The position numbers and the translations under genes are program-made. A stretch of DNA of 64,000 nt from a virus (lineage: Duplodnaviria > Heunggongvirae > Uroviricota > Caudoviricetes): IMG/VR virus record IMGVR_UViG_3300003097_000006. One strand, given 5' to 3'. Shown here in pieces: positions 5,782 through 37,983 of this stretch (the stretch's first letter is position 1; every line of letters starts with the position of its first letter). The notes beneath the pieces were generated by a model. That model was not told where the DNA came from. It was given only the letters and a program-made list of their open reading frames with translations, and did not search any database.

Positions 5782-5858
5782 TTTGTATTTACCTTTTCAT
5801 CTATTGGTTGGGAAGAATCTACATTATAAGAGGCTCCGAAGAACCTCTGAAATATAGA

Positions 5859-6340: not shown

Positions 6341-6349
6341 CTTTACCTA

Positions 6350-8299
6350 TTACTTGTTGTGGCTTGGAACCATTCCCAGTTCCAATTTTTTAGCGCAGGT
6401 TTCACAGCAAGGTGTGCTACCTACGAATTCTGTCGTTGCTGCCTTTTTGAATGGAATTTTATCATGACACCAAGAGCAGGTGTTCATTTCATTCCACTGA
6501 GACAGCGTGACCTTCATCCCATTTTGAAGAGTTTTACGATACGTCAGAATTGGACGAACGTTGCCCTTCGGTTTGTTAGCGTATTTGTTTGCAAAGCACT
6601 GCAAACAGACACACTCTTTTTCTGACTCTGCATCAACTGGAAGTTCAGTCGAACATTCGATACACTCGAAGCGAAGTTCTCCCAGTTGAGGCTCCCCCTT
6701 TGATTGTGACTCCTTTGGTTCAAGGCCGTCAATAAGACCGGCATCTACGCAGGCGTCACAGTAGGCGAAGTCACGGAACACAGTGGCATCAGCCATGAAG
6801 TCGAAGGGGATTGGAGAGCCACAATTTCCGCAGGAATTTAAACAATCGTGTCTCTCCCACTCCTTTTTTGTATAGACGCTACCATCTCTGGTTACGTCCA
6901 TTTCGTTACCGTCTGATTCCTCTTCTTCCATTTCTGGGTCTTGAGGGACGTCAACGTCGTCAGGAGTGTGTGTCTGAGCAATCAGCGCAGTTCCACGAAC
7001 AGTTGATGCAATGATATGTTCCATTTCATCATCTTCATCAAAATCATCATCCAAAGGAATTGGAGTGACATTGACAGTTTCGTCACGAACATCGCTGACA
7101 ATCAGAGTCAGAATGTAGTTGGCTTCATAAGCCGAGATAACTTTACCAGAGTACAGTTGCTCACCGCCATAGATGTTTTTATCAACACCATGACCCTGAA
7201 CTTCGATGTACTCACCTTCACCAATCCAGCCGGTCAGTTGACCACGCTCAGGATTTTTCGGATATGGTTCGAACTGGAATGCTTCGAACTTAATACGGTC
7301 ACCGATTACAGCATCAACGCCGTGGCTCTGAAGCATCTCATTTAACTGATGATGCTTTTCGAGCGTGGCTCTCATTTCTGATGTTTGATGAGTGTTGCTA
7401 GAAACGCGGTTTGGATAGCTGTTAGCCCCTCGATTATTGTGGGGCCAGCGGCTGTCGTAGTCGTCGTAGTCGTCGTCATACGAGTTATAGCCGCCCGAAT
7501 TCCAGTTGCGATAGTTGTAAGAATAGGTGGAGCGAAAGGTTGGAAGCTCATGCTTCACCTCCTCCCTAAACTTCAGCCCATCGGCGGTATCAAAGATATA
7601 CTGAACACCAACTTCGAGTTCAAACTCTTTTTCAATCGTCGGATTGAACTTCCGGCGAGACATAATCCATTTAATCATGTCTTTTTCGGAAGCACCATAC
7701 CAGTCACCGGTATTGGTTTTCATCATGTAGAAAGGACGCTCATCGTTTCGGATGAAATTCAGAGTGTTCTCTTTAGCATCATGCCAAACCAGAACGAACG
7801 CACCATGCAATTTCTTGATGGTTTCAGCGATACCGATTGTAGCAATCGAATAGCAGACATTTTCACTGTCTACTTCGAAACGCTTGTGGTCTGGTAACAA
7901 AGACTGGTCAACCAGTGAACCATTGTGAACCAGGGTGATATGCTCATGTTGGAAAGGGTGAGCGTTTTTGTCGTTAACCGCACCGGCAGTTGCATAACGG
8001 TTGTGACCAACCATGAACTTCGGATTGATTGAAGACGTCGTTGTTGCCTTCGTAACAGGGTTAACATTTTTGGTTTTGTGTTCTTTAACATCATCCCAGA
8101 TTTGGGAACGAACAAACATGTCACCTGGGATTGCTTTCTTTGCAATCTTAATGAAAGCTTGTTCATTATACGGCTTGTAATAAGCCATGACGCCAGTTGA
8201 GTGTTCACCACGGAAAGTGTCAGCAAACAACATGTTTTCAAAACGTTCGATATTAGCCGACGAAAGTGTCACGCCGCCCACAAATACGATTCCACACAT
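6350..8299 (-). CDS. class-II (Ntn) glutamine amidotransferase fused to a C-terminal array of CxxC zinc ribbons
   Basis: The protein starts MCGIVFVGG with a Cys2 nucleophile and carries GHNRYATAG, both characteristic of GATase class II (GlmS/AsnB/PurF-like). A Tyr/Asp/Asn-rich low-complexity linker follows. The C-terminus has at least 5 CxxC pairs (CGNCG, CDAC, CIEC, CLQC, CSWC, CETC). Confidence 0.7.
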   Translation of the reverse strand: MCGIVFVGGVTLSSANIERFENMLFADTFRGEHSTGVMAYYKPYNEQAFIKIAKKAIPGDMFVRSQIWDDVKEHKTKNVNPVTKATTTSSINPKFMVGHNRYATAGAVNDKNAHPFQHEHITLVHNGSLVDQSLLPDHKRFEVDSENVCYSIATIGIAETIKKLHGAFVLVWHDAKENTLNFIRNDERPFYMMKTNTGDWYGASEKDMIKWIMSRRKFNPTIEKEFELEVGVQYIFDTADGLKFREEVKHELPTFRSTYSYNYRNWNSGGYNSYDDDYDDYDSRWPHNNRGANSYPNRVSSNTHQTSEMRATLEKHHQLNEMLQSHGVDAVIGDRIKFEAFQFEPYPKNPERGQLTGWIGEGEYIEVQGHGVDKNIYGGEQLYSGKVISAYEANYILTLIVSDVRDETVNVTPIPLDDDFDEDDEMEHIIASTVRGTALIAQTHTPDDVDVPQDPEMEEEESDGNEMDVTRDGSVYTKKEWERHDCLNSCGNCGSPIPFDFMADATVFRDFAYCDACVDAGLIDGLEPKESQSKGEPQLGELRFECIECSTELPVDAESEKECVCLQCFANKYANKPKGNVRPILTYRKTLQNGMKVTLSQWNEMNTCSWCHDKIPFKKAATTEFVGSTPCCETCAKKLELGMVPSHNK

Positions 8300-8366
8300 G
8301 GGAAAGTTTCCTCTTGAAACATTTAAAGAAGGGGCTTTATGCCCCTATGATGGACGATAGTTCGTC

Positions 8367-10070
8367 TCAGAAGTTGGCTGTATCTTCGTCGTCTTCTTCG
8401 TCGTAACCTTCGTACTCTTCATCATCGTCTTCAAAAGAAGCACGACGTGGGGCCGGTTGAGGTACACTGCGGGAAGAGTAGAACTCACGATAGAGTTGAC
8501 GATGTTGATTCGGCAACTGACGAGGCACGAACCAGTCAGAGTCGAAGGTAATGCCGCGTTCACGACATTTCTCTTGCAACTCAGCCAACCATTCGAATGT
8601 AATTACATCCGGTGCTGAATCTGGGAACAACCACATACCGTCAGTATGTCGGCGCAATTCACGCTGAAGATGGTTGATATATGGGCTTTCAACCGTCACA
8701 CGCATTCTGCGAGATGTATCATCGGTTTCGTTACGAACGTTGTGAACGTAAACATTACGACGACGACACTTAGCCAGAGAAACCACATCGTGAGCCAGCT
8801 TATAACCAATCTCCATGTCTTGCTCAAAGTCCGGTAAGACTTTAGGCAGACCTTTGCGAATCGCTTGGTGAAGCGGAATCGTCATGAGATATTCGATGAA
8901 CGATGAATCATCGCCTTCGAAGTTCATTGCTAACTCTTTCAGCGAGAGGAAGCGGTTGACCAGGCGAATCAAACGACCTTTACGCCACTTCGCTTCACTG
9001 ATGCGGAACTCGATGGAACCGAAGCTCTGCATTGGAAGCAAGTTCAAGGACGTGTACTTGTCCCAGTTTGAAGCGATGCTACGCATGAAGTTCTGGTCGT
9101 CTTGTTCCCACGCACGAGCCAGAATAGCCAACTGGTCTTGGGCAAAGCCCAAAGCAACACAGAAGTTATTCTTGTAACGATGCCACCCTGAACATTTGAA
9201 CAGGATACGCTCGTAAACAATGTACGCCAGAATCATTCGCTTCAACTGAGGAGCAGTCATGTTACGAACGTCTACGTGGACATGAGTTGAACAACGCCAA
9301 GACTCATCCGGAGAGTTCGTGAACAAGAAGCTGTCGATTTCAATCGCAGCATTGTACAGGTCGCGTCCACCCCACGGAGATGAGCAGACAAATTCCATTC
9401 CGGAATTACGCAGAGAACCATCTGACTTAGCTTCCCAATACTGGAAGTTAGGGGGGTTGGAGGTCATGTTCTCCAATTCAATCTCAACCCCAGCGAGATT
9501 CTGACCCACAATCAGTGGGTGACTCTCAATTGTCGGATACGACGCTCGTTGTCCAAAAACCTGAGCAACAGTAACCATATTATTATCAACCTCTACGTTA
9601 CCAGATATGAAGTTTTCCTGATTAACACTTCCAAAGCTTCCGTTGCCTTGGCGAGGGTGGTCCTCATCAGACCAGTGGTAGACACCACTAACAGCACCAG
9701 GTGCATCATCAACCGGTTCTGTGTGAGCTGCTTGGAAGGGGTCAGAAGTTAGACTACCAGAACCCCCTCCAAAGGCGTGTGCAAATTGGGCATATCGACT
9801 GATTCCACCATTAGTACGTGAACGTGATGATACAGACTGAACTGTACGTTGACCGGATTCAGCTTCTGCTCTTGCACGTTCTTGACGTTCTCGGATTCGA
9901 GCTAAATCTCTGTCCCACATTGCCTGCCACTCATTTACCGCCCTTGTGGCATCTTCTGTTGGTGGAGCAGGTGGTGGAGCAGAAGCCTCACGGGCCTCTG
10001 CTTCTAAACGATTCCGGTCATTTTCAGACCGGATATGAGCCATTAACTCGTCGAAACTACGGTTTGGCAT
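8367..10070 (-). CDS. glutamine-synthetase-fold amidoligase (Amidoligase_2-like) with low-complexity N-terminus and acidic C-terminal tail
   Basis: Motifs VEIELENM, SGMEFVCSSP, THVHVDV and GSIEFRISEAKWRKGR give the Glu/Glu, HxH and ExR constellation of GS-like/GCS2 amidoligases. The protein is 567 aa. Confidence 0.6.
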   Translation of the reverse strand: MPNRSFDELMAHIRSENDRNRLEAEAREASAPPPAPPTEDATRAVNEWQAMWDRDLARIRERQERARAEAESGQRTVQSVSSRSRTNGGISRYAQFAHAFGGGSGSLTSDPFQAAHTEPVDDAPGAVSGVYHWSDEDHPRQGNGSFGSVNQENFISGNVEVDNNMVTVAQVFGQRASYPTIESHPLIVGQNLAGVEIELENMTSNPPNFQYWEAKSDGSLRNSGMEFVCSSPWGGRDLYNAAIEIDSFLFTNSPDESWRCSTHVHVDVRNMTAPQLKRMILAYIVYERILFKCSGWHRYKNNFCVALGFAQDQLAILARAWEQDDQNFMRSIASNWDKYTSLNLLPMQSFGSIEFRISEAKWRKGRLIRLVNRFLSLKELAMNFEGDDSSFIEYLMTIPLHQAIRKGLPKVLPDFEQDMEIGYKLAHDVVSLAKCRRRNVYVHNVRNETDDTSRRMRVTVESPYINHLQRELRRHTDGMWLFPDSAPDVITFEWLAELQEKCRERGITFDSDWFVPRQLPNQHRQLYREFYSSRSVPQPAPRRASFEDDDEEYEGYDEEDDEDTANF

Positions 10071-10648
10071 TCTGGGTACTCCTGACTCACTGAACGAAGC
10101 AAATGAGCCGCCTCTGGGAACAGCTCAATGCCTTCCCCGACGAACTTACCGATGTACACGTCTTTATAACGCAAATCATCATCAGTTTTGAGGAAGACGT
10201 TGCCAGACACTTCAGGATACTTGTGCTCACTAAAGAACTCAGCGATTGTATCCCAATCGAACACTGGCATTCCGCAAACACGGCGACTTGTCAGACCTTT
10301 CTTGGTCGAACGATTCGCACGATACGAAACCCAATAATAACGATTACGCCACTTAATGTAGCGAGAGTCTGGAAGTTCCAGAACCAACTTCTCGTCAGTG
10401 TGAGGAACTGAACGGTTTTCGTAATTACCGTTCGGATAACGAACTGTTCCGTGGAACACCAGAGCATCCAGTGCATCATCAGAGAAACCTAAAGTCTCAC
10501 GGTCAGATGCACTCATTGCTCGCAGGTTCATCACATTGTTATCGTGAGTTACCGCTTCAATTTGAAACGGCAACAAACCATGTTCAGGGTCACGATAACC
10601 GACGTAAGTCGAACAGTAATACATTCCGAAATCGTCGGATAAAGCCAT
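10043..10648 (-). CDS. hypothetical protein (201 aa) located between the two amidoligase paralogs
   Basis: Minus-strand ORF with no recognisable motif. Its position suggests it belongs to the ligase cluster. Confidence 0.55.
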   Translation of the reverse strand: MALSDDFGMYYCSTYVGYRDPEHGLLPFQIEAVTHDNNVMNLRAMSASDRETLGFSDDALDALVFHGTVRYPNGNYENRSVPHTDEKLVLELPDSRYIKWRNRYYWVSYRANRSTKKGLTSRRVCGMPVFDWDTIAEFFSEHKYPEVSGNVFLKTDDDLRYKDVYIGKFVGEGIELFPEAAHLLRSVSQEYPECQTVVSTS

Positions 10649-10658
10649 CTTGTGCTCC

Positions 10659-11462
10659 TTAGCAGATGTTCAACATACGGATGAACTGTTCCGCCATGTG
10701 TTTGTCGTTGTTGTTGATTGCCTTCTGAATATCTTCAGGGTTAACAATCGACACCATCTCCATGTAATCACCCTGAGACATGTCGAACGCTTTATGAGCC
10801 TGTTCCCAAGCCCAGCGACGATTATCGTCATTGGCAATCCAGAAGTTAGACAGAACACGATATTCAATACCGTACTCTTTGAAACGGCAAGCACCCGCTT
10901 TGCCATACAGCTCTTTACGACGGTCGTCGCCGTCCAGAAGAAGTGCAGGCAGACCCAGATAGTAATCACACATTACACCCATAACCTTCTGAAGTTCAGA
11001 GGTTACAGGAACCACACCGCTTACGCCAATGTGAATGTGACCACCTGCTGTACGGAGGCCTGGGTCAGCAGCAGCCGGTTTAGGGTTACGCATACCGGTC
11101 AGAGCATTGTAATCCGGCTCACAACCGAATACGAATGCATCTTTGTGGAATGATAATAACTCTTCCGGCGTGAAGATGTGAGAACTCACACCGAGAATAA
11201 CTTCGTGACCAACTTCTGCAACAGCCTCTTGACATAAGTCAATGCCGCGCTTAATGTTGTCATTGAAGCCGTCAAAATCACCATGCGGGTTGGTATCAAA
11301 CTCAACCAGCACGTTATCTTCCTGAATACGAATGTCGTCCGTGACTACCTTTTTGTTGTACTTGTCCGCTCCCAGCAGACCTGCAACTGAACTGATAAGG
11401 TTGCTGCTCACATTACGGGTGAACAGTTCAGGGTCAGTTGCCAACAAAATGACTTTAGACAT
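10659..11462 (-). CDS. second glutamine-synthetase-fold amidoligase paralog (267 aa)
   Basis: VLVEFDTNPHGDFDG, GGHIHIG and EYGIEYRVL reproduce the E-x-E, HxH and E-x-R pattern of GS-like amidoligases. Confidence 0.55.
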   Translation of the reverse strand: MSKVILLATDPELFTRNVSSNLISSVAGLLGADKYNKKVVTDDIRIQEDNVLVEFDTNPHGDFDGFNDNIKRGIDLCQEAVAEVGHEVILGVSSHIFTPEELLSFHKDAFVFGCEPDYNALTGMRNPKPAAADPGLRTAGGHIHIGVSGVVPVTSELQKVMGVMCDYYLGLPALLLDGDDRRKELYGKAGACRFKEYGIEYRVLSNFWIANDDNRRWAWEQAHKAFDMSQGDYMEMVSIVNPEDIQKAINNNDKHMAEQFIRMLNIC

Positions 11463-11476
11463 TTCTATATCCTTAA

Positions 11477-12550
11477 TTAAAGACGTGGTGGAATGTTGTT
11501 ATCGGTACAGAATTGAGCAAGACGCTCAATAAGAAGCTCAGCCTTCTCATCGCTTAAGCTCTCCTGTAGATATGTGATATCATCTAAGAAAAACTTAAAC
11601 CCAAGAACACTGTTCCATTGTTGAATTTCTTCATCAATGGGAACATCCCCCGGAATACTGAACACGTCAATCATGTGCCAATATTTACGAGGACACATTG
11701 GTACTCGGTCTTCACGACCCCAGTTTTGAAGCTCAGCAGCAACATCACGGCTCTTTGTCGTGAAGTTCCAAAGGAACCCTTCATAACGTTCGTCGAACCA
11801 GATTTCGTTTCTGCGGAACCATTCTTCGCGGAAGTAGCCTTTAGACTCACTCCACTTGTGCTGCTTCCACCGGAAAGCTTCCAGATTCTGACCCATAAGG
11901 TTCAGGAACCCTTGACGACCCAGTGTATCAGGACTACACCAGTTATACTCACCGGTTTGTGTGTTCTGAATTACAGCTTTAGGAGCACGACCGAAAGTAC
12001 CTGGCATCACATCAATGTAAACCATGTGCGCCACAACAGCCGCGAAACGAGGACGATAACCTTTGTTCAGTAACCAACGATAACCCATTGCGAAGTTACC
12101 GTATTGAGCCAAGTTACGGAAAAGGTAGAGAGCCAACATGATTTGGTCGGCAGTGTGGTCTTTGATATGCACACGAATGCCGCCGATGAGGGGGTGGACA
12201 GTCACAAGACCTGCCAACATTGGCAAGTCTTCAACCAAATCCTTCATCATGTTCAGAAAGTTACGGTTTGCGGTTTTACGAGCATCGGTTCGAGATACGT
12301 CGCTAGGCCAGTCACGAGTCGAGTAATCAGACTGGTCGTAGCACCAAATTGGATGAATCCCATGAAGAGAGTCATACAAAATGAATGCATGGTCAGAGCC
12401 ATCACGGTCTAACAGACTGTGTACGTTGCTTCCAGAGAAGCTGAACGGTCTCTGCTCATGCCAACGGGCGTTTCCCATAACCCCGAAGCAAATGGATTCG
12501 TTTGAAAAACGGTTCCCATCCTTGAAAACCACACTGTAACGTACTGACAT
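11477..12550 (-). CDS. hypothetical protein (357 aa)
   Basis: Minus-strand ORF, Trp-rich, no recognisable motif. Confidence 0.55.
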   Translation of the reverse strand: MSVRYSVVFKDGNRFSNESICFGVMGNARWHEQRPFSFSGSNVHSLLDRDGSDHAFILYDSLHGIHPIWCYDQSDYSTRDWPSDVSRTDARKTANRNFLNMMKDLVEDLPMLAGLVTVHPLIGGIRVHIKDHTADQIMLALYLFRNLAQYGNFAMGYRWLLNKGYRPRFAAVVAHMVYIDVMPGTFGRAPKAVIQNTQTGEYNWCSPDTLGRQGFLNLMGQNLEAFRWKQHKWSESKGYFREEWFRRNEIWFDERYEGFLWNFTTKSRDVAAELQNWGREDRVPMCPRKYWHMIDVFSIPGDVPIDEEIQQWNSVLGFKFFLDDITYLQESLSDEKAELLIERLAQFCTDNNIPPRL

Positions 12551-12551
12551 T

Positions 12552-13463
12552 TTATTCCCCTTTATTATCTTTCAGTACTTTCTCCCACACCGCCTGAGCA
12601 AGCTTCAGGAATTCACTTTCAACAAAGCGATGATGGTTTCCAAAACTGTTGTTGATAGTCAACAGTTCAGTTTTATCCCAATCTTCCGGGATGTTTTCCA
12701 GAGACGTTAACATCGTTGTATCAGTCAGAGTACAACGACGACCGGTACGTGGGTTAACTGGAGCAGAACCATCCCCGTAGTTACCATAACGACCGTAACC
12801 CTGCTCTGTATCACCGAACACGCCTTGATAGATTTTACCTAATCCACCTTCCATCATGTTGATGAGGTCAGCAACGGTTACTTCGTCACCGAATACACAT
12901 TCATCTCCACCCTGACCTTGCCAGAACGAGTATTCGGATGAACCGAAGCTCTTATTGCACTGATAGGTCATTGCCATGACGAACGAGAATGGAACATCGA
13001 AACCGGCAGTACGCAGAATCATGTACGAGTTCCCGAATGAGCTGTACTCAATCAGGTTACGCAGCATCATTGCGCCCATCACAGTAGTCTGCATGTTTTG
13101 GTCAGCCAGTGGAATATAAATATCACCGGTATCAAAACCGCCAAGTTCCAGACCTGGATAACTCTCATCTTCATCCAGAATCTTAAACCCACTGAAATAC
13201 TGAGGGAATGCTGCCAGAATTTCTGGAAGCTCCTGATTAATCAGCTGAGTTCCATCGCACCCAGATGGGCCAGGTGACCAAACCATATGGCTCAATTCAC
13301 CAGATGAGAAACCACTGAGAGGACCGGCTACATACTCGTCCTCTTCGTCATCCCATTGTTCGTTATCTTCATCCCACTGTTCGATGTAGGATAAAAATCC
13401 AAAGCAAGGTTTTGAAAACTCTTCACTTGCACCTCGCTTATTAAACACCGTAGCCATTACCAT
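12552..13463 (-). CDS. hypothetical protein (303 aa), acidic N-terminus
   Basis: Minus-strand ORF, Gly/Tyr-rich, no recognisable motif. Confidence 0.55.
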   Translation of the reverse strand: MVMATVFNKRGASEEFSKPCFGFLSYIEQWDEDNEQWDDEEDEYVAGPLSGFSSGELSHMVWSPGPSGCDGTQLINQELPEILAAFPQYFSGFKILDEDESYPGLELGGFDTGDIYIPLADQNMQTTVMGAMMLRNLIEYSSFGNSYMILRTAGFDVPFSFVMAMTYQCNKSFGSSEYSFWQGQGGDECVFGDEVTVADLINMMEGGLGKIYQGVFGDTEQGYGRYGNYGDGSAPVNPRTGRRCTLTDTTMLTSLENIPEDWDKTELLTINNSFGNHHRFVESEFLKLAQAVWEKVLKDNKGE

Positions 13464-16895: not shown

Positions 16896-17117
16896 TCACC
16901 CCTCCTTAGAAACACTTCCAGAAAATTTAACCTTGAAGTATTTCTTCAAATGCTCCACAGACATATACGCCAGCACAACATCAATGCCAGCACCCAGCAC
17001 TGATGCGTTGCGTACATCGTAGATAAACAGGAAGAACAGAATAACTAAAAACACCATATGTGCATACGGTGTATTCAGAAAGTCTGCAACCTTATTCAGC
17101 TTTGACTTAAAGCTCAA
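16896..17117 (-). CDS. small membrane protein (73 aa)
   Basis: Hydrophobic segment HMVFLVILFFLFIY. Its start overlaps the NAMPT stop. Confidence 0.45.
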   Translation of the reverse strand: MSFKSKLNKVADFLNTPYAHMVFLVILFFLFIYDVRNASVLGAGIDVVLAYMSVEHLKKYFKVKFSGSVSKEG

Positions 17118-18784
17118 AACAGCCCCTTAGCTACGGCTTCTTTCACCGTGCGGTCAACGTATGATTCGATACGTGCCAGCACTTCATCACCGCTTTCAGT
17201 GAAGATTTCACCGTTGCGGTAGATAGTTACCAGCGCAGTGTCTGCTTCTTCTTCAACAGTAGCCTGGTCTTTGAAAGTCCAGTTACCGTTTTCATCGACG
17301 AAGTGAGCCATCAAGCCTTTAGCAGACTTTTTGGTGCCATCGTCAGTTGCAGGGTCTTTGAAGATTTCGCGGGCTTCACCATTAACGATGCCCCACGTCG
17401 CTTTCATAGCCCAGCCCAGCGTGTCACGAGTGACATACTGATAGGTGAACGAGCCGATACCCAGCACAACGTTGCTAGAGGCAAAGCCCTTAGCTTTGAG
17501 ACGCTGGAAGATTTCGAGCTGACGTTCCAGAGAGATTGAATCGCCGTAAATCAGGCCGATTTGAGGAGCGAGGACTTTGTAGCCTTTGGAGTTGATTTCA
17601 CCACCAAAAGTATCCCACAGAATCTGAATCGCACCTTTCACTTCCGCTTCTGACTTTTTAGTCACGCAGAAGTAACCGCCGTTGAAGTACGCATAGGTGA
17701 AGTATTCATCACCAATCTGTACAACATACGAACCATTTTCCGGCAGGTCGTTAGCATCATCCAGCATCCACTGACGTGCAATGTTCTCGTCTTTGAAACG
17801 AGCCACAACAGTGAATCCACAGATAATGTCTTCCGGAACACCGGAATCAGGACGAACAACCAGCTTACCATCACGTTCCATGATGATATCTTTGATGCTC
17901 GGCAGGGTGATTGTCAGAACATCCCAGAAGTTCCAGGTGTCAGACACGACCGACAGAATACCGGTAGTGTAGACTTCGGTCAGAAGACGAATGAACGTCT
18001 GGCGCTCATCATCTTTACCACCCATGCACATTACTGAATGCTCAGTAGCATTTACAGAGCCACCACGACCAGCTTCGGTCGGATAATGCTCATTGAAACG
18101 CTCACGGGCAAACACAGAGTCTGTCCCGTTGTAAGCCATCATATGACCAATACCGGTCAGACTGTTAGCCCACATGCCCATGCTCCCACGAGCAGCAAAG
18201 TCATGACCCTGCCACTGAACGTGGTCGTTGTTGTCGCAGGTCAGCTCAGCGAAGTATTCGCTCATCAGACGGAAGCTGAGTGCAGTCGTTGCAGAGGTAG
18301 CAACAGGCCACAGTTCAGCGCTCATCAACGTTTCCAAATAGTTCGGAATCCAGTAGAAATCGTCGATGGTGTTGATGATGGTAATCGGAGGACATTTAAC
18401 TTCCACCACATTACCTTCCGGCACTGCTTTAACGTGAATCGGCAGGTAGCCGAGTTTGTGCAGTTCATAGAACGGCTTCACGTCATAGTCGGTGTACAAA
18501 TAACTGTTAACCGATGCACGGAATTTCTCAACCACTTCTTCAGCGGGTTGGTTAAAGAAGTTGGTCTGAAACTCGTCGACCAGCCACTGAAGCATGAAGG
18601 TCTGAGCACCAACCCAAAGGATTGGAGAACCAGCTTCACCACGGAGGGCTTTGAAGAACGGAGATTTCAGATACTTGTTCGCACGAGGCGTAAAGTTACT
18701 GTACACGCGAGTAGTACCTTCTGGGTACTGAGCGCGGTGACCGAGTTTATAGCCGTCAATCGCAAAGATAGGACTAATTTTCAT
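17114..18784 (-). CDS. nadV: nicotinamide phosphoribosyltransferase (NAMPT/NadV-like)
   Basis: The N-terminus ...SPIFAIDGYKLGHRAQYPEGTTRVYSNFTPR matches the conserved NAMPT N-terminal block (DSYK..H...YP). Size is about 556 aa. The start is trimmed to Met15, giving a TAATG overlap with the Prs stop. Confidence 0.8.
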   Translation of the reverse strand: MKISPIFAIDGYKLGHRAQYPEGTTRVYSNFTPRANKYLKSPFFKALRGEAGSPILWVGAQTFMLQWLVDEFQTNFFNQPAEEVVEKFRASVNSYLYTDYDVKPFYELHKLGYLPIHVKAVPEGNVVEVKCPPITIINTIDDFYWIPNYLETLMSAELWPVATSATTALSFRLMSEYFAELTCDNNDHVQWQGHDFAARGSMGMWANSLTGIGHMMAYNGTDSVFARERFNEHYPTEAGRGGSVNATEHSVMCMGGKDDERQTFIRLLTEVYTTGILSVVSDTWNFWDVLTITLPSIKDIIMERDGKLVVRPDSGVPEDIICGFTVVARFKDENIARQWMLDDANDLPENGSYVVQIGDEYFTYAYFNGGYFCVTKKSEAEVKGAIQILWDTFGGEINSKGYKVLAPQIGLIYGDSISLERQLEIFQRLKAKGFASSNVVLGIGSFTYQYVTRDTLGWAMKATWGIVNGEAREIFKDPATDDGTKKSAKGLMAHFVDENGNWTFKDQATVEEEADTALVTIYRNGEIFTESGDEVLARIESYVDRTVKEAVAKGLF

Positions 18785-19674
18785 TAGACACCTGAGTAGT
18801 TGAGTGTACGAGCCAAATGTCCGCAATCATAGATGCGAACCTGCGGGTTGTCTTCGTGAGGTTTCTCACAGAAGGACACTGAGTTTGTAGTGTAGATTTT
18901 ATCCACACCACGACTGAGCAGGTGGTCGTAACCTTTACTAAAGATTCCGTGAGTTACCACCAGTTCGACTGTCTTAGCCCCAGCCTTTTTCAGGGCTTCG
19001 GCAGCACCGATGAAGGTCATACCACCGTCGCAAATATCATCGAAGATAACGCAACGACGGCCTTCAAGAGAAGACAGTGAACAGTCAACGATACGCATAC
19101 CGACAATATTGCCAGTCGCCACGTCACGCTCTTTATCCAGAACAACCAAGCCGATACTCGGCACGACCTTCTGAATACCATGAATTTTCTTCAGAGCACC
19201 GGCATCAGGAGAAACGATTACAATATCGTCACCCTGGGTTAAGCCATAGTGAAGAGGGTTGATTTGAAGCAAACGAGCCTGAGGAATGTTGAACACATTG
19301 TCAATCAAACCTGGGCCAACATCAGAGTGAGCATCAAACACGATGATTGAATCGAGTTCAAGTGCATTTAACTGCTTAGCGAACACTTTAAGAGTGAACG
19401 CATCGTTCTGAACCATGCGACGGTCTTGACGTGCATATGGCAGATACGGCATGAACAGGCAGATACGCATACGCGGATTGATGAATCGCAGAATATCTAC
19501 CACGCAAGCAACTTCAAAGAATTGATGTTGCGGGTCAGTGTCAGCCGTAACACTGATTGTAGCGCTTTCACATTGACGAGGCAGAACCCCTAACAACTGA
19601 ACACGCAAAGCACCGTCACTGAAACGTCCAGATTCGATGGATACATCGAGCGAATTAACCTTAAGATTAATCAT
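18784..19674 (-). CDS. prs: ribose-phosphate pyrophosphokinase (PRPP synthetase)
   Basis: PYLPYARQDRR, FDAHSD and VIFDDICDGGMT are the classic Prs motifs. The start is trimmed to MINLKV (ATG 19672-19674) with an AGAGG ribosome-binding site. Confidence 0.8.
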   Translation of the reverse strand: MINLKVNSLDVSIESGRFSDGALRVQLLGVLPRQCESATISVTADTDPQHQFFEVACVVDILRFINPRMRICLFMPYLPYARQDRRMVQNDAFTLKVFAKQLNALELDSIIVFDAHSDVGPGLIDNVFNIPQARLLQINPLHYGLTQGDDIVIVSPDAGALKKIHGIQKVVPSIGLVVLDKERDVATGNIVGMRIVDCSLSSLEGRRCVIFDDICDGGMTFIGAAEALKKAGAKTVELVVTHGIFSKGYDHLLSRGVDKIYTTNSVSFCEKPHEDNPQVRIYDCGHLARTLNYSGV

Positions 19675-20009: not shown

Positions 20010-20651
20010 TTACGCCGCTGGGACTTCGATTTGAGTCGCTGCGTTTGTTTCGTTCAGTGCAACGTCGACTTCCTGCTCGAACACCTCAATTTCGTTCAAC
20101 TGAGTTGTGATGAACTGTTGCAGGTCAACCGGTGCAACGATGGAAGGAGTACCACGCTTACGCATGTCTTCAATCGTCGTCTTCACCAGGTCTTCGTTCG
20201 TATTGTCGGCCTGTTCTTTCGAATAGGCGTCGATACGGTTTTCAAGCTCAGTCTTCTTCGTACCAACCGTCGCTGATACTGAACGGAGCTGCATCTGAAG
20301 GCGTAACAGGAACGCTTTGCGACTCACGACGAATTTCTTCATCTCAATCGCTTCCGCCAGCGTGTATGTCTTTTCGCCAACCTTCACAGTAGTTTGTGCA
20401 TTAGCCGTAACCACTGCTCGCTTGACCAACTCACGGCGAAGGATTAACGCTTGCAGTGAGTCGAAGTTACCTTTCAGCGCTGCTTTGAGCGATTCAAGGT
20501 CTTTGAAAGTGTTATCATTAGGTTTGGCGAGTTCGCCTTCACCCAACACAACACTCACAACTGGTAGGGCTGCCGCACGTTCAATGCGACCTCCCAGTGA
20601 TTTCAATTCTACCAACGCACGAGCGATGGAGATTTTAGTTGTTCCCGACAT
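20010..20651 (-). CDS. hypothetical protein (about 213 aa, start at MSGTTK)
   Basis: ATG 20649-20651 has an AAGAGG ribosome-binding site. The track start 20720 overlaps the upstream gene. Confidence 0.5.
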   Translation of the reverse strand: MSGTTKISIARALVELKSLGGRIERAAALPVVSVVLGEGELAKPNDNTFKDLESLKAALKGNFDSLQALILRRELVKRAVVTANAQTTVKVGEKTYTLAEAIEMKKFVVSRKAFLLRLQMQLRSVSATVGTKKTELENRIDAYSKEQADNTNEDLVKTTIEDMRKRGTPSIVAPVDLQQFITTQLNEIEVFEQEVDVALNETNAATQIEVPAA

Positions 20652-21363
20652 TTTGAAGACCTCTTGGGGGTGGAGTAACAAATTTGCGATGGTCGAAATC
20701 AAGCCCTTCAATTTCACCAATCACACGGTAAGTTGTGTTCATAGTTTCAATGAACCAAACCTGAGCAATGCAGTAAATCTGTTTGATACTGCTGGTGTGG
20801 ATGTGAGTACCATCACGGAATGGATGATGCCCCGTGGTCATTTTATCATCAAAGATATTGCCCCACGCTATCGCACGACTCTTGTCCAGGTTGTACTGGA
20901 TGAAGCAACGACCAAGTCGAGCATCAAAGTGATGCTGCTTAGGTGCTTTAATCAAACCGGTAAGCAGTGGATTTTCATCCGCTGTAAACGATGAGAATGC
21001 GTTACGTTCATACATGATTTTGAAGTCACGAGCGAACTGACGCAGGCGGTTTGGGTTAAGACGCAGTACGTTCTTCTGGAAGCCACGTAACTGAACCGGG
21101 TCCATTAACTTCATGGAACCATCAACAGCGACACGGCTACCGACTGAGGTTGCCATGCACAGGTATTCATAACGACCACACCAGACATACAACAGTTGAC
21201 CGATTTCGAATTCAGTGAAGTCAGTCAACTCTGCCAGCACTTTGGTAGTGCCAATTGCCAGAGGTTCAGGGAACTTCTTATTGAACAGATGAGGAAAACG
21301 CTCAATCAGTTCAGGCATACGGCGGCTGTAGAAATCATATTGAACAGGAGAAACTGGACGCAT
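20635..21363 (-). CDS. ProQ/FinO-domain RNA-binding-like protein with an unknown C-terminal domain
   Basis: The N-terminus ...MPELIERFPHLFNKKFPEPLAIGTTKVLAEL resembles the ProQ N-terminal block (ERFPHCF...PLKIG). ATG 21361-21363 has a GAGAGGTG ribosome-binding site. Confidence 0.5.
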   Translation of the reverse strand: MRPVSPVQYDFYSRRMPELIERFPHLFNKKFPEPLAIGTTKVLAELTDFTEFEIGQLLYVWCGRYEYLCMATSVGSRVAVDGSMKLMDPVQLRGFQKNVLRLNPNRLRQFARDFKIMYERNAFSSFTADENPLLTGLIKAPKQHHFDARLGRCFIQYNLDKSRAIAWGNIFDDKMTTGHHPFRDGTHIHTSSIKQIYCIAQVWFIETMNTTYRVIGEIEGLDFDHRKFVTPPPRGLQNVGNN

Positions 21364-21456
21364 CTTAACACCTCTCATTGTTAGTTGACATATAACTAAT
21401 AAAGCCCACTTATCAACCACCCCTCTAAGAAGGGAAGCTGTAAATGGGCTTGATAG

Positions 21457-21593: not shown

Positions 21594-22514
21594 TTATTTG
21601 GAACGACTGTCGAAGATGGTAGAACCGGCGTAGCCAGCACCCATAACAGTGTTCGGAACGCCACCCTGGTATTTATCAGCAATGGTCTGCTGAACATCCA
21701 GTTCTTTCCAGCGAATCATCTCAGGTGTGATGGTCTGCTGAAGGGCACGGTTAGCTTCTGCTTCTTTCTTAGCTGCGTACAGCTTAGCATCAGCATCACG
21801 TTCGTTCGCCTGAGCGGCGTTAGCACGAGACTCTTTCGCTGCTACAGAAGTAACAACTTGCTGTTGAGCAATCTGTTCTTTCTTAGCCAGTTCAGCTTTC
21901 TCAGCGTTCACCTCTTCTTCACGAATCTTGGTGTTAGTCACCTGAGTCATGATTACTTCCGGCAGGGTGATGTCCTGCAAGAAGATTTCCTTAACGGTAT
22001 AACCGTAAGGACGGGCATACGCTTCGATTTCTGCTTTCACAGAATCTTGCAACTGAGCCTGGATTTCAGCATTGAAAAGGTCTTGAGCTTTCGGCACTGA
22101 CTTACCGAACTCGCGGACAGTAGAGAGCAATTTCTGCTCAACATACTTATCCAGCGCCTGGTCCTGAGTACCAGCGTTGATGCGGTTCATTGGCGCTTTA
22201 GAGCCATCAAACTGCAACATGACAGTCATATCCACAGTGGATTTGAACTTGTCCTGGCTAGGAACCTGGAGCTTGTCGTATGAGATTTTAATATCCTTCG
22301 TGGAGAAGGTATCAAAACTTGCAAACGGGTTCACGATGTGGAAGCCCGGCTTGACAGGTGCAGTTGAAACTTTACCCAGGAAGGTCTGAGTCTTAACCGT
22401 ACCGTCTTGCACAACGGTGTAGGAGTTGAGGCCAACAATCAGTGCAACGACTGCAACCAGACCACCTAAACCCCACTTCTTAAACTTCTTGAACAAGTCT
22501 TGCTCACGAGACAT
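21594..22514 (-). CDS. SPFH/band-7 (HflK/C, stomatin/prohibitin-like) membrane protein
   Basis: An N-terminal transmembrane segment (GLGGLVAVVALIVGL) is followed by YTVVQDGTVKTQTFLGKV, typical of the band-7 core. The C-terminus is a long Ala/Glu/Lys-rich coiled coil. Confidence 0.65.
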   Translation of the reverse strand: MSREQDLFKKFKKWGLGGLVAVVALIVGLNSYTVVQDGTVKTQTFLGKVSTAPVKPGFHIVNPFASFDTFSTKDIKISYDKLQVPSQDKFKSTVDMTVMLQFDGSKAPMNRINAGTQDQALDKYVEQKLLSTVREFGKSVPKAQDLFNAEIQAQLQDSVKAEIEAYARPYGYTVKEIFLQDITLPEVIMTQVTNTKIREEEVNAEKAELAKKEQIAQQQVVTSVAAKESRANAAQANERDADAKLYAAKKEAEANRALQQTITPEMIRWKELDVQQTIADKYQGGVPNTVMGAGYAGSTIFDSRSK

Positions 22515-22599
22515 GGATTAACCTTATCAGTTAGTTGTTGAAACCGGAGCCAACATGACTCCGAACAAACCCTCTCGTAAGAGGGCTTGCGCAGAGCAC

Positions 22600-23808
22600 T
22601 TAGCTGAACAGACGTTCCAGCATGTCTTTCTCAGTCTTCGCCTTCATAGGCTCGACGATTACAGTGAACAGCTTGCCGTCAACCTGACGTTCGAAGCGAG
22701 CACCTTTTGTAGTGCTGAAGGTGTCGGTCGCTGTATCCAGGCGCAGGTAGGCTTTGAATGGGGTTTCAAAGTCTTCCAGGTCTTCTTCAGTAGGTTCACG
22801 CTCTTTGGAGATTTCCACCAGTTCACGGTTGTAGTGATAGCAGTTGGATTTGCCCATCGCGCTGATGAAGGTCGCCATGTCTTTCCAGTTATCGAGTTCG
22901 AACCCGATGTTGAACAAGTGGCTACCTTCGTGTACAGCAACCAGGTCAACCATAACGTGAGCGTCATGAACTTTCAGCTCTTCGTCACCCCAGGTAACTT
23001 TGGTGGTGCGGCAGTGCATACGAGTTGCTTCACCCAGAGTCACGTTCATGTCCAGAATCAGGTCAACGAAGTTGGCGTCAGGGTAACGGTTGAGTTCTTC
23101 AACAACAGACTGCAACACGTCGAAGGACATGTCAGTGCTGATACCCCAGAACACGCGGATTTTCGGCAGGAAGTCTTTATTGACCAGCACGTCGTTACAG
23201 TAGCCAATCAGAACTTCTTCTTCCAGCTTGACGTAACGCCAGTGATAGAAGAAACGGCTTGGACGAGACAGCAGGAATTCACTGACCTGACCATCGTTGG
23301 TAGTCGCCAGGAACAGCTTGTTGTTAACGCCAGTGCCGTCCAGCAGGGACAGGAGGCCGTTCTGTTTGTCGTGGTCGTTGTATTTCTTCTCGAACTCGTC
23401 GATGAATACGACAACCGGCTGAGTGATGGAGTTCATGAACTGGTTGAACTCAGTACCCATGTACGCTTCTTCAATCAGAAGAACAGGTTTGTCTTCTTCA
23501 AGCGCCAGGGCGCAGATGGTACGGGACAGCAGGGTTTTGCCAGAGCCTTTGTTACCAGACAGCAGTACGCCGGTGTTCTTGTCCGTGCGGCTGTTGAAGG
23601 TGTTCAGCACTTTACGAGCACGAGGCTCAACAGTACCGTACAGCTTCTCAGGCAGAGTCATGTCAGCCTGACGACGCAGGAAGAAACCGCCAGCCATAGG
23701 GTTGTAATCAACCACATAGACGCCGGTTGGGATAGCAGGAATCTCATCACCACGGTCAGACGCAGTGAATACATTCTTGCCACGGGCTACAAAATGTTGC
23801 TGTTCCAT
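22600..23808 (-). CDS. classical AAA ATPase with unknown C-terminal domain
   Basis: Walker A (LLSGNKGSGKTLL), Walker B (VVVFIDEFE), sensor-1 (ATTN) and arginine finger (LLSRPSRFF). It lies immediately upstream of the SPFH gene on the same strand. Confidence 0.7.
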   Translation of the reverse strand: MEQQHFVARGKNVFTASDRGDEIPAIPTGVYVVDYNPMAGGFFLRRQADMTLPEKLYGTVEPRARKVLNTFNSRTDKNTGVLLSGNKGSGKTLLSRTICALALEEDKPVLLIEEAYMGTEFNQFMNSITQPVVVFIDEFEKKYNDHDKQNGLLSLLDGTGVNNKLFLATTNDGQVSEFLLSRPSRFFYHWRYVKLEEEVLIGYCNDVLVNKDFLPKIRVFWGISTDMSFDVLQSVVEELNRYPDANFVDLILDMNVTLGEATRMHCRTTKVTWGDEELKVHDAHVMVDLVAVHEGSHLFNIGFELDNWKDMATFISAMGKSNCYHYNRELVEISKEREPTEEDLEDFETPFKAYLRLDTATDTFSTTKGARFERQVDGKLFTVIVEPMKAKTEKDMLERLFS

Positions 23809-26490: not shown

Positions 26491-26566
26491 TGGAGGATAG
26501 CACCCGATTCGAACGGGTGTGATTCGGATTTGCAATCCGATGCCTAAGCCACTCAGCCAGCTACCC
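26491..26566 (-). tRNA. tRNA-Cys (GCA)
   Basis: The reverse complement has acceptor GGGTAGC/GCTATCC, anticodon arm TCGGA-TTGCAAA-TCCGA (anticodon GCA), T-arm ACCCG-TTCGAAT-CGGGT, discriminator U73 (typical of tRNA-Cys) and an encoded CCA. Confidence 0.7.
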
Positions 26567-37638: not shown

Positions 37639-37643
37639 GATAT

Positions 37644-37733: not shown

Positions 37734-37737
37734 AATT

Positions 37738-37813: not shown

Positions 37814-37819
37814 AAATTT

Positions 37820-37896: not shown

Positions 37897-37902
37897 AACA
37901 AT

Positions 37903-37976: not shown

Positions 37977-37983
37977 AACAAAT

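What the first reader, a model, noticed from the sequence alone, without database searches (positions are those of the whole stretch)
17114..19674. NAMPT plus PRPP synthetase: a phage NAD+ salvage module likely to counter NAD-depleting immunity
The two genes overlap by a TAATG stop-start arrangement. Prs makes PRPP and NAMPT condenses PRPP with nicotinamide to NMN. Nicotinamide is exactly what Thoeris, DSR, SIR2-type and other NADase defences release. Phage NAD-reconstitution pathways containing NAMPT have been shown to overcome such defences. No NMN adenylyltransferase (HxGH motif) is visible in this window, so either the host NadD/NadR is used or the partner lies outside the window.
Basis: partly seen in the sequence, partly recalled or inferred. 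Interest (0 to 1): 0.6.

Follow-up and report, generated by a model that had tools for sequence, protein, structure and literature searches.

The report
Phage NARP1 NAD-rebuilding gene pair
These two overlapping phage genes look like PRPP synthetase and NAMPT, but they are the already described NARP1 pair (Adps + Namat), which rebuilds NAD+ directly from the ADP-ribose and nicotinamide left by NAD-destroying bacterial defences, so no NMN adenylyltransferase is needed.

Summary
Two minus-strand genes, a Prs-like ORF (19674→18784, 296 aa) and a NAMPT-like ORF (18784→17114, 556 aa), overlap in TAATG. No NMNAT or Nudix gene is in the window.

The proposed biochemistry (PRPP → NMN → NAD via an NMNAT) is the naive Pfam reading. 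Osterman et al. (2024) disproved it experimentally for this operon type. The pair is NARP1: Adps pyrophosphorylates ADP-ribose, and Namat joins ADPR-PP to nicotinamide to give NAD+.

- The NAMPT-like protein carries the Namat adenine-clamp motif (GSFTYQYVTRD).
- It matches the SpβL1 Namat crystal structure at 429 bits, against 197 bits for human NAMPT.
- It falls with Adps-linked Namats and away from NMNAT-linked Nampts in 500 of 500 bootstraps.
- The Prs-like protein has the Adps state at 12 of 16 class-discriminating positions. It lacks the Prs N- and C-terminal elements and scores like validated Adps on the Prs model.
- The orthologues in Salmonella phages 7-11 and SE131 are already listed in the NARP1 paper's tables.

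Verdict: real, functional-looking (dN/dS 0.06–0.13), already known. The anti-defence idea is right; the enzymology and the expectation of an NMNAT are wrong.

The parts
18784..19674 (-). adps: ADP-ribose pyrophosphate synthetase (Prs-like), 296 aa; first gene of the pair
   Evidence: ORF and sequence. Prs-family domains. TIGR01251 scores 141.5 bits, like the validated Adps of Bas63 (138.5) and ICP1 (98.3), against 422.7 for E. coli Prs; all Prs equivalog cut-offs are failed. Adps state at 12 of 16 class-discriminating columns. Residues corresponding to ICP1 Adps are conserved: F18, R82, H116, D157, K181 and D212-D213-I-C215-D216. The 7-11 and SE131 orthologues are in the 'Adps homologs' table with Namat nearby = Yes. 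dN/dS 0.10-0.13.
17114..18784 (-). namat: nicotinamide ADP-ribose transferase (NAMPT-like), 556 aa; second gene
   Evidence: The best solved-structure matches are SpβL1 Namat 9W5X/9W5W at 429 bits, against 197 bits for human NAMPT. The SCH clamp motif GSFTYQYVTRD lies at residues 444-454. The SCL reads PR-A-N-K37-Y38. The catalytic core is D10, Y12, F196, R199, D222, H249, R311, D313. The Namat/Nampt split has 500/500 bootstrap support. The 7-11 and SE131 orthologues are labelled 'Adps-associated'. dN/dS 0.06-0.08.
18782..18786 (-). TAATG stop/start overlap joining adps and namat (translational coupling)
   Evidence: Read directly from the sequence. The same arrangement occurs in pSal-SNUABM-01, where the two CDSs share a coordinate. 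In phage 7-11 the genes are 8 nt apart instead.
17657..17812 (-). Lineage-variable insertion in Namat (residues ~325-376) relative to SpβL1 and ICP1 Namat
   Evidence: The HMMER alignment to 9W5X breaks between query residues 324 and 377. Bas63 and Pakpunavirus HJ01 Namats carry insertions at the same site. ICP1, the Gram-positive phages, the chromosomal homologues and all Nampts lack it.
16896..17117 (-). Small downstream ORF (73 aa, hydrophobic); its TTG start overlaps the namat stop (TTGA). Possibly co-transcribed; function unknown
   Evidence: ORF list. Annotated as a hypothetical protein at the same position in pSal-SNUABM-01 and 7-11. No Pfam match. Membership in the module is not shown.

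Best explanation
The two genes are a NARP1 (NAD+ reconstitution pathway 1) operon of a 7-11-like (Grimontviridae) Salmonella phage.

Gene 1 (Adps) uses ATP to transfer pyrophosphate to the terminal ribose of ADP-ribose, giving ADPR-PP. Gene 2 (Namat) replaces that pyrophosphate with nicotinamide and yields NAD+ directly. The substrates are exactly the two products of NADase effectors (SIR2, TIR, SEFIR, DSR). The pathway therefore runs only when a defence system is cleaving NAD+, and it needs neither PRPP, nor NMN, nor an NMN adenylyltransferase.

Shown here: the gene structure, family and clade membership, conservation of the catalytic and substrate-selectivity residues, absence of an NMNAT, and purifying selection. 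Inferred from orthologues (SpβL1, Bas63, Fado, ICP1): the chemistry and the anti-defence phenotype.
For: 1. Published classification. The orthologues in phages 7-11 and SE131 (82-83% aa identity for Adps, 92% for Namat of 7-11) appear in Osterman et al. Table S1, 'Adps homologs', with 'Namat within 10 genes' = Yes. They also appear in Table S2 as 'Adps-associated'.

2. Namat.
- It scores 429 bits to the SpβL1 Namat structures 9W5X/9W5W, against 197 for human NAMPT and 176 for Xcc Nampt.
- It carries the family-defining SCH motif GSXΦXΦXΦTRD as GSFTYQYVTRD. KVP40-type Nampts have GGGLLQQLDRD.
- The SCL has Lys then Tyr, as in Bas63.
- All NAM/NMN-site residues are conserved.
- The NJ split of 9 Adps-linked Namats including the window from 4 Adps-less Nampts (KVP40 validated; CcrPW with an adjacent NadM) was recovered in 500/500 bootstraps.
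- tblastn identities are bimodal: 36-43% to Adps-linked phage proteins and 24-29% to KVP40-type proteins.

3. Adps.
- It has the Adps state at 12 of 16 columns that separate 6 Namat-linked phage Adps from 75 canonical Prs. It has the canonical state at 1.
- It has the DDICDGGxTF loop against DDMIDTGGTL, KERDVATGNIVG against KRRPRANV, and AHSDV against LHAEQIQGFF.
- It lacks the roughly 17-aa N-terminal and roughly 20-aa C-terminal Prs elements.
- Its Prs-HMM score matches that of validated Adps.
- The ICP1 catalytic K185 and its acceptor residues are conserved.

4. Gene order. adps→namat is the order in Bas63, ICP1, Eyuki, SAML-685, Lewan and HJ01.

5. No NMNAT or Nudix gene in the window or in the rest of the closest complete genome.

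6. dN/dS is 0.06-0.13.
Against: - Nothing has been measured for this protein pair or for any 7-11-like phage.
- The window Adps is the most Prs-like of the Adps examined. It keeps 64 of 192 canonical-invariant residues against 40-52 in the others, including RFSDG.
- Its BLOSUM distance to E. coli Prs (0.75) is about the same as to Bas63 and ICP1 Adps (0.73-0.76).
- I could not root an Adps/Prs tree with phylogenetically diverse canonical Prs. The only ones retrieved were gammaproteobacterial and at least 80% identical to each other. Clade membership of Adps therefore rests on class-specific positions and on the published tree.
- The Namat has a 7-residue-longer SCL and a roughly 52-aa insertion that are absent from the crystallised enzyme. 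The genetically validated Bas63 Namat does have an insertion at the same site.
- Namat enzymes keep PRPP→NMN activity in vitro.
Confidence: 0.9

Rival explanations
1. One reading: a true PRPP synthetase plus a true NAMPT make NMN from ribose-5-phosphate and nicotinamide, and a host enzyme (NadR, or PncC with NadD) or an off-window phage NMNAT completes NAD+. This is NARP2-like chemistry.
For: The Pfam and NCBIfam names fit. Namat enzymes can make NMN from PRPP in vitro at about half the rate of human Nampt. The window Adps keeps several canonical Prs motifs, namely RFSDG and ARQDRR.
Against: The same hypothesis was tested and rejected for the orthologous operon: no dependence on pncC or nadR, no measurable product from Adps when tested as a Prs, and a preference of Namat for ADPR-PP. 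The window protein sits in the Adps-linked Namat clade, not in the Nampt clade that co-occurs with Nmnat in 94% of phages. No NMNAT was found in the window or in the rest of the closest complete genome. All Prs equivalog cut-offs are failed by more than 150 bits.
Confidence: 0.04
2. Same NARP1 chemistry, but the main role is housekeeping: recycling the ADP-ribose and nicotinamide produced by the phage's own NAD+-consuming enzymes, rather than counter-defence. The close relative encodes a Sir2-family protein and a Poa1p-like Macro protein.
For: pSal-SNUABM-01 encodes a SIR2-family protein (PF02146, 8e-25) and a Macro-like protein outside the part covered by the window. Chromosomal nrtR-prs-nadV homologues in Enterobacteriaceae suggest that non-defence uses of the pathway exist.
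Against: Deleting NARP1 from Bas63 or Fado gives a phenotype specifically on NADase-defence hosts, and NARP1 does not raise NAD+ in defence-free cells. Whether the window's own genome has the Sir2 and Macro genes is unknown, because they lie off-window. The two roles are not mutually exclusive.
Confidence: 0.05
3. Extended pathway (NARP1-AP): the pair also depends on a Macro-domain ADPR-1''-phosphate phosphatase (Adpp), so that it can also defeat RES-type (aRES) NAD+ phosphorolysis.
For: The relative's gp075 is 31% identical (E 2e-18 pairwise) to the phosphatase embedded between adps and namat in Vibrio phage K354. It is 36% identical to one lying three genes from namat in Pseudomonas phage NoPa. 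Adpp is described in bioRxiv 10.64898/2026.01.28.702374.
Against: No Macro gene lies in or next to the operon in the window. The candidate is about 25 kb away in the relative and is off-window here. Its Pfam Macro score (21.0) is below the gathering cut-off (22). The same Macro family occurs in about 2,900 phage records, many of them without NARP1.
Confidence: 0.25

Closest known systems
NARP1 (Adps + Namat) of Bacillus phage SpβL1, E. coli phage Bas63 (genes 79-80), Bacillus phage Fado and Vibrio phage ICP1 (Osterman et al. 2024; Namat structures 9W5X/9W5W; ICP1 Adps structures, NAR 2026)
   Same: Two-gene adps→namat operon, Namat clamp motif, Adps donor-loop and β-hairpin signatures, conserved catalytic residues, no NMNAT in the genome. 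The orthologues in 7-11 and SE131 are already catalogued as NARP1.
   Different: Only 35-47% aa identity to the characterised enzymes. TAATG overlap instead of an intergenic gap. Namat has a roughly 52-aa insertion (shared in position with Bas63 and Pakpunavirus, absent from SpβL1 and ICP1) and an SCL 7 residues longer than in Bas63. The Adps retains more canonical Prs residues than other Adps.
NARP2 (Nampt NadV + Nmnat NatV) of Vibrio phage KVP40
   Same: Same protein superfamily for the second enzyme, the same end product (NAD+) and the same anti-defence purpose.
   Different: KVP40-type Nampts prefer PRPP, lack the aromatic clamp (GGGLLQ in place of GSFTYQY), form a separate clade (500/500 bootstraps), are not linked to a Prs-like gene and co-occur with an Nmnat. 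None of this applies to the window.
NARP1-AP (Adps–Adpp Macro phosphatase–Namat), e.g. Vibrio phage Gary; the same arrangement seen here in Vibrio phage K354
   Same: Same two core enzymes. A homologue of the phosphatase exists elsewhere in the closest complete relative.
   Different: There is no Macro gene inside or beside the operon in the window.
Chromosomal nrtR<>prs-nadV operons of γ-proteobacteria (Rodionov et al. 2008), here Kosakonia cowanii and Cronobacter sakazakii
   Same: They are the closest cellular homologues: Adps 42-43% and Namat 47% identity. The order is the same, the Namat motif is GSFTYQYNTRD and the loops are Adps-type. The Adps proteins group with the window at 95% bootstrap.
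   Different: They sit in the core chromosome next to an ADPR-sensing NrtR repressor, lack the Namat insertion and presumably have a housekeeping role.
Canonical Prs (E. coli b1207) and NAMPT (human, Xanthomonas)
   Same: Same folds, and shared catalytic Lys, Asp and His residues.
   Different: The window Adps fails every Prs equivalog cut-off, lacks the N- and C-terminal Prs elements and has a re-wired donor loop. The window Namat has the adenine clamp that Nampts lack.

Membership tests
NARP1 | A Prs-like (Adps) gene immediately upstream of a NAMPT-like (Namat) gene on the same strand | tested here: met
   19674→18784 followed by 18784→17114, overlapping in TAATG. The same order is seen in Bas63, ICP1 and four other phages.
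NARP1 | [quoted passage not shown] | tested here: met
   GSFTYQYVTRD at residues 444-454, with F446 and Y450 aromatic. The four Nampt-clade proteins have GGGLLQ…RD.
NARP1 | Namat selectivity-clamp loop (β1-β2) supplying a stacking residue: third residue Arg/Lys/Tyr, and if it is Lys or Tyr the fourth residue stacks | tested here: inconclusive
   The window has PR-A-N-K37-Y38, as does Bas63 (S-D-K-W). KVP40-type Nampts also read G-G-K-F, so the sequence rule alone does not discriminate. The window loop is 7 residues longer than in Bas63, and no structure was modelled.
NARP1 | Conserved Nampt-like catalytic core in Namat (SpβL1 D13, Y15, F189, R192, D215, catalytic His, R306, D308) | tested here: met
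   Window residues D10, Y12, F196, R199, D222, H249, R311 and D313.
NARP1 | Namat falls in the Adps-associated clade, separate from Nmnat-associated Nampts | tested here: met
   NJ split recovered in 500/500 bootstraps. PDB score 429 against 197 bits. Published table label 'Adps-associated' for the 7-11 and SE131 orthologues.
NARP1 | Adps-type donor (PP) loop and catalytic β-hairpin, distinct from canonical Prs | tested here: met
   DDICDGGMTF against DDMIDTGGTL, and KERDVATGNIVG against KRRPRANV. The window has 12 of 16 discriminating columns in the Adps state and 1 in the canonical state.
NARP1 | Adps catalytic Lys (ICP1 K185, SpβL1 K162) and ADPR-acceptor residues (ICP1 F18, R87, H121, D161, D212, D213, D216) | tested here: met
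   Window K181, F18, R82, H116, D157, D212, D213 and D216. ICP1 F92 is Met in the window, as it is in Bas63.
NARP1 | Loss of the Prs C-terminal α11-α12 filament/regulatory region | tested here: met
   The window protein ends about 20 residues before E. coli Prs. It also lacks the roughly 17-aa N-terminal helix.
NARP1 | Adps belongs to the well-supported Adps clade in a tree with diverse cellular Prs | tested here: inconclusive
   Only closely related gammaproteobacterial Prs could be retrieved, so monophyly could not be tested here. The published Table S1 lists the 7-11 and SE131 orthologues among Adps homologues with Namat nearby.
NARP1 | Enzymology: ADPR + ATP → ADPR-PP, then ADPR-PP + Nam → NAD+ | not testable with these tools
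   Shown for the SpβL1, ICP1, DyoEdafos and P. foliorum enzymes, not for this lineage.
NARP1 | Rescue of phage from NAD+-depleting defence, independent of host pncC and nadR | not testable with these tools
   Shown for Bas63, Fado and SpβL1 NARP1.
NARP2 | Nmnat (NadM/NadR/NatV-type) gene in the same genome | tested here: not met
   No CTP_transf_like, NMNAT or NUDIX hit in 52 window ORFs or in 28 off-window CDSs of pSal-SNUABM-01. None is annotated in that genome.
NARP2 | Nampt of the KVP40 clade (PRPP-preferring) | tested here: not met
   25-28% identity to KVP40-type proteins, opposite side of a 100% supported split, and class motifs not shared.
Canonical ribose-phosphate diphosphokinase (Prs) | Reaches NCBIfam equivalog or subfamily cut-offs for Prs, and has the canonical DLHAxQIQGFF and DTGGT regions | tested here: not met
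   Best equivalog score is 105 bits against a cut-off of 296. Only the broad TIGR01251 model is passed, at 141 bits against 423 for E. coli Prs. The two regions read DAHSDVGPGLI and DGGMT.
NARP1-AP | Poa1p-like Macro phosphatase (Adpp) within or beside the NARP1 operon | tested here: not met
   No Macro hit among the window ORFs. A homologue exists about 25 kb away in the relative only.

The most novel reading that the evidence does not exclude
The window's NARP1 belongs to a sub-lineage shared with the ADPR-sensing, NrtR-controlled chromosomal 'prs-nadV' operons of Enterobacteriaceae. Those operons would then be cellular, ADPR-inducible NARP1 pathways. That would answer the 2008 puzzle of why a second 'prs' is co-regulated with nadV. 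It would also mean that 7-11-like phages exchanged the module with their hosts.

In this phage lineage the pathway may further be fed by an unlinked Poa1p-like Macro phosphatase and a phage Sir2, which would give a dispersed NAD+ cycle. Osterman et al. already hint at housekeeping bacterial NARP1 in their Discussion, so this would sharpen that idea rather than start a new one.
Probability: 0.45. Interest if true: 0.45.

Novelty: already known. Interest (0 to 1): 0.2.

Why it matters
For this window it matters mainly as an annotation correction. Public records of this phage lineage, and Pfam and NCBIfam, still name the genes 'ribose-phosphate pyrophosphokinase' and 'nicotinamide/nicotinate phosphoribosyltransferase'. 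Those names lead a reader to expect a missing NMNAT.

Recognising the pair as NARP1 predicts three things:
- the phage should plate on Salmonella or E. coli carrying SIR2-HerA, DSR1/2, type I Thoeris or SEFIR;
- it should remain sensitive to RES-type NAD+ phosphorolysis unless it also has a working Adpp;
- it should impose little metabolic cost in defence-free hosts.

That is useful when choosing or engineering therapeutic Salmonella phages, but it is not a discovery.

Tried and rejected
1. NMNAT/Nudix partner. I scanned all 52 non-overlapping ORFs of at least 100 aa in the window, and 28 CDSs of the off-window part of pSal-SNUABM-01, against Pfam. Nothing was found.

2. Rooted Adps/Prs tree. 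That set is too narrow to test Adps monophyly, so I replaced the tree with a class-discriminating-column test. The first Biopython bootstrap labels were scrambled by re-rooting, so I recomputed split support directly.

3. NCBIfam PRK09198 does not separate Namat from Nampt. It scores 468-508 bits on all of them, so it was not used as evidence.

4. The SCL 'Lys then aromatic' rule is also satisfied by KVP40-type Nampts. I judged it non-discriminating.

5. The promoter/terminator scan around the operon gave no more sites than shuffled sequence does, so no regulatory claim is made.

6. [quoted passage not shown] I could not identify them from the literature and did not use them.

7. No solved Adps structure was found by sequence in the PDB copy.

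8. Structure prediction was not run. It would not have changed the verdict.
Full report
**What is there**

The finding covers two genes on the minus strand.
- A 296-aa ORF starts at ATG 19674 and ends at TAA 18786-18784.
- A 556-aa ORF starts at ATG 18784 and ends at TGA 17116-17114.
- The two share one base in the sequence TAATG.
- SD-like sequences sit 4 nt upstream of both starts: AGAGG and AGGTG.
- Pfam assigns Pribosyltran_N, Pribosyltran and Pribosyl_synth to the first protein, and NAMPT_N plus NAPRTase to the second.
- NCBIfam gives TIGR01251 (3e-41) and PRK09198 (1e-147).

**Origin**

The region is 94% identical in DNA to Salmonella phage pSal-SNUABM-01 and about 85% identical to phages 7-11, SE131 and SeKF_80 (Grimontviridae, about 90 kb). 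The whole window is collinear with pSal-SNUABM-01 at 68-88% identity. It runs across the ends of that linear record and covers roughly record positions 56.2 kb → end → 29.3 kb.

**The key point from the literature**

They refuted it.
- Bas63 still overcame SIR2-HerA in a ΔpncC ΔnadR host.
- A new metabolite, ADPR-pyrophosphate, appeared during infection.
- The purified SpβL1 'Prs' gave no measurable product when tested as a Prs (ribose-5-phosphate per the Fig. 2D legend) but converted ADPR + ATP into ADPR-PP.
- The 'Nampt', given PRPP and ADPR-PP together, made only NAD+.

They named the enzymes Adps and Namat and the pathway NARP1. It occurs in 859 phages, 4.3% of those surveyed. The NAMPT-containing pathway that does need an NMNAT is NARP2, typified by KVP40. 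It uses a separate Nampt clade, and 94% of those phages also encode an Nmnat. No phage was found with both pathways.

**Is the window protein a Namat or a Nampt?**
- Its best solved-structure matches are 9W5X and 9W5W at 429 bits. These are the SpβL1 Namat crystal structures. Human NAMPT scores 197 bits and Xanthomonas Nampt 176.
- The structural paper defines Namat by an adenine 'selectivity clamp'. [quoted passage not shown] The other is a variable β1-β2 loop that supplies another stacking residue.
- The window has GSFTYQYVTRD at residues 444-454. SpβL1 has GSFTYQYNTRD, and Bas63 and ICP1 have GSYTYQY[MV]TRD.
- Four Adps-less phage Nampts have GGGLLQ..(D/T/N)RD in that position. They are KVP40, Klebsiella phi1_146010, Aeromonas AhFM11 and Caulobacter CcrPW, the last lying next to a NadM-type NMNAT.
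- Other class-specific differences go the same way: IYGDS against IQGD, and ATEHSVM against AREHST.
- The catalytic core is intact: D10, Y12, F196, R199, D222, H249, R311 and D313.
- In a 13-sequence NJ analysis, the split between nine Adps-linked proteins (window included) and the four Nampts was recovered in 500 of 500 bootstraps.
- tblastn against 50,697 phage records is bimodal: 36-43% identity to Adps-linked proteins and 24-29% to KVP40-type proteins.
- The loop rule (K37-Y38) is met, but KVP40-type proteins also read K-F there, so I do not count it as discriminating.

**Is the Prs-like protein an Adps or a Prs?**

Overall similarity does not decide this. The distance to E. coli Prs is about the same as to Bas63 or ICP1 Adps. 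I therefore used three other tests.
- Profile score. On the general Prs model TIGR01251 the window protein scores 141.5 bits. The validated Adps of Bas63 scores 138.5 and that of ICP1 98.3, whereas E. coli Prs scores 422.7. Every Prs equivalog cut-off is missed by a wide margin.
- Discriminating columns. I defined these without using the window: at least 95% conserved in 75 canonical Prs, and conserved as a different residue in at least 5 of 6 Namat-adjacent phage Adps. Of 16 such columns the window has the Adps state at 12, the canonical state at 1 and another residue at 3.
- Elements named in the ICP1 Adps structural paper. The donor 'PP loop' is DDICDGGMTF; ICP1 has DDICDGAASF, Bas63 DDICDGGRTF and E. 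coli Prs DDMIDTGGTL. The catalytic β-hairpin is KERDVATGNIVG against KRRPRANV. The AHSDV segment replaces LHAEQIQGFF. The C-terminal α11-α12 region and a roughly 17-aa N-terminal helix are absent.
- Conserved residues. The catalytic lysine (ICP1 K185, SpβL1 K162) is K181 here. The acceptor-site residues F18, R82, H116, D157, D212, D213 and D216 are conserved.

**Published classification**

The supplementary tables of Osterman et al. already contain this lineage. HM997019_00126 (7-11) and MG873442_00036 (SE131) are in 'Adps homologs' with 'Namat within 10 genes' = Yes. HM997019_00125 and MG873442_00037 are in 'Namat homologs' with the genomic environment 'Adps-associated'. The window proteins are 82% (Adps) and 92% (Namat) identical to those of 7-11.

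**The 'missing' NMNAT**
- None of 52 non-overlapping window ORFs of at least 100 aa matches a cytidylyltransferase/NMNAT or NUDIX family.
- None of 28 CDSs in the roughly 27 kb of pSal-SNUABM-01 that the window does not cover matches either.
- None is annotated in that genome.

Under NARP1 this is expected.

**State of the genes**

Both genes are under strong purifying selection. dN/dS is 0.10-0.13 for adps and 0.06-0.08 for namat, measured against pSal-SNUABM-01 and 7-11.

**Peculiarities**
- The Namat has a roughly 52-aa insertion (residues ~325-376) between the RPDSG segment and the following helix. It also has a β1-β2 loop 7 residues longer than in Bas63.
- Insertions at the same site occur in Bas63, which is genetically validated, and in Pakpunavirus HJ01. 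They are absent from ICP1, the Gram-positive phages, the chromosomal homologues and the Nampts.
- The Adps is the most Prs-like of those compared. It keeps 64 of 192 canonical-invariant residues against 40-52 in the others.
- Neither feature contradicts NARP1. Both are untested.

**Relatives outside phages**

The closest cellular homologues of the Adps (42-43% identity, 224 bits) are 286-aa 'ribose-phosphate diphosphokinases' of Kosakonia, Cronobacter, Phytobacter and related genera.
- In Kosakonia and Cronobacter they sit in the core chromosome, between prkB/crp and yheS/kefB.
- They form a prs-nadV operon transcribed divergently from an NrtR-type (NUDIX + WHD_NrtR) regulator.
- The chromosomal 'NadV' carries GSFTYQYNTRD. 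The 'Prs' has Adps-type loops and 12 of 16 Adps-state columns.
- It groups with the window Adps at 95% bootstrap.
- Rodionov et al. (2008) showed for Shewanella that NrtR leaves the prs-nadV operator in response to ADP-ribose. They called the dedicated second prs unexplained.
- NARP1 chemistry would explain it. Osterman et al. already allude to this possibility, and a bacterial NARP1 from Paenibacillus has been shown to be active.

**Other NAD-related genes of the lineage (off-window)**
- pSal-SNUABM-01 encodes a SIR2-family protein (8e-25).
- It also encodes a Macro-like protein, gp075. Its Pfam Macro score of 21.0 is just under the cut-off of 22.
- gp075 is 31% identical to the phosphatase embedded between adps and namat in Vibrio phage K354. 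It is 36% identical to one near namat in Pseudomonas phage NoPa.
- Such Poa1p-like phosphatases (Adpp) extend NARP1 so that it also defeats RES-type NAD+ phosphorolysis.
- Whether the window's own genome has these genes cannot be told from the window.

**Verdict**

The feature is real and intact, and it is almost certainly a NARP1 operon (confidence 0.9). The enzymology (PRPP and NMN), the gene names and the expectation of an NMNAT are wrong. The module, including its orthologues in this phage lineage, is already in the literature, so novelty is 'already known' and interest is low.

Noticed in passing
L007 7082-10364; L010 7084-10360 (Kosakonia cowanii and Cronobacter sakazakii chromosomes): The closest cellular homologues of the window pair form a chromosomal prs-nadV operon transcribed divergently from an NrtR (NUDIX + WHD_NrtR) regulator. 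The 'NadV' has the Namat clamp motif GSFTYQYNTRD and the 'Prs' has Adps-type loops. Because NrtR responds to ADP-ribose (Rodionov 2008), these look like ADPR-inducible cellular NARP1 pathways. That would explain the 'second prs' puzzle of 2008. Osterman et al. hint at this; a search for NrtR together with NARP1 returned only one paper, the NARP3 study.
   Followed up: partly
L002 2102-2605 and L001 41361-42128 (pSal-SNUABM-01; off-window part of the relative's genome): The closest complete relative encodes a Poa1p-like Macro protein. It is 31-36% identical to phosphatases embedded in or next to NARP1 operons of Vibrio phage K354 and Pseudomonas phage NoPa. The relative also encodes a SIR2-family protein. 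Together these suggest a possible unlinked Adpp (NARP1-AP) and a phage-own NAD+ consumer. Their presence in the window's own genome is unknown.
   Followed up: partly
window 17657-17812 (-), Namat residues ~325-376; also residues 39-56: There is a roughly 52-aa insertion in Namat at a site where Bas63 and Pakpunavirus Namats also carry insertions of different length and sequence. The β1-β2 'selectivity clamp loop' is 7 residues longer than in Bas63. The structural and functional meaning is unknown.
   Followed up: partly
window 2118-2195 (-): ARAGORN calls a tRNA with anticodon TTA (it would read UAA, an ochre-suppressor type) next to a tRNA-Leu(AAG) at 2367-2452. The anticodon position (37) is atypical, so it may be spurious. 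No tRNA is annotated at the matching place in pSal-SNUABM-01.
   Followed up: no
window 37562-38379 (+) and 26491-26566 (-): A cluster of eight tRNA genes (Arg, Ser, Asn, Pro, Gln, Trp, Met, Phe) lies just upstream of the terminase gene, and there is a lone tRNA-Cys. The relative is annotated with seven tRNAs in the cluster and no tRNA-Ser.
   Followed up: no
window 4522-13463 (-): A phiEco32-type block of predicted peptide-ligase and amidotransferase genes: RimK-like ATP-grasp, class-II glutamine amidotransferase, Amidoligase_2, COOH-NH2 ligase type 2, and two unannotated ORFs. The substrate is unknown.
   Followed up: no
window 43674-44675 and 44753-46510 (+): Two adjacent paralogous SU10-type major capsid protein genes. 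They cross-hit each other at about 71% DNA identity in the comparison with the relative.
   Followed up: no
window 34993-35159: The window runs straight across what are the two ends of the linear GenBank record of pSal-SNUABM-01 (record 89500 → 54). The source contig is therefore circularly permuted relative to, or starts differently from, the deposited relatives.
   Followed up: no
window 21594-23808 (-): An SPFH/Band-7 protein is followed by a 402-aa AAA ATPase with weak hits to novel STAND NTPase families (nSTAND3 at 1e-6). Both lie upstream of a ProQ/FinO-domain protein (20635-21420) and of the NARP1 operon. Function unknown.
   Followed up: no
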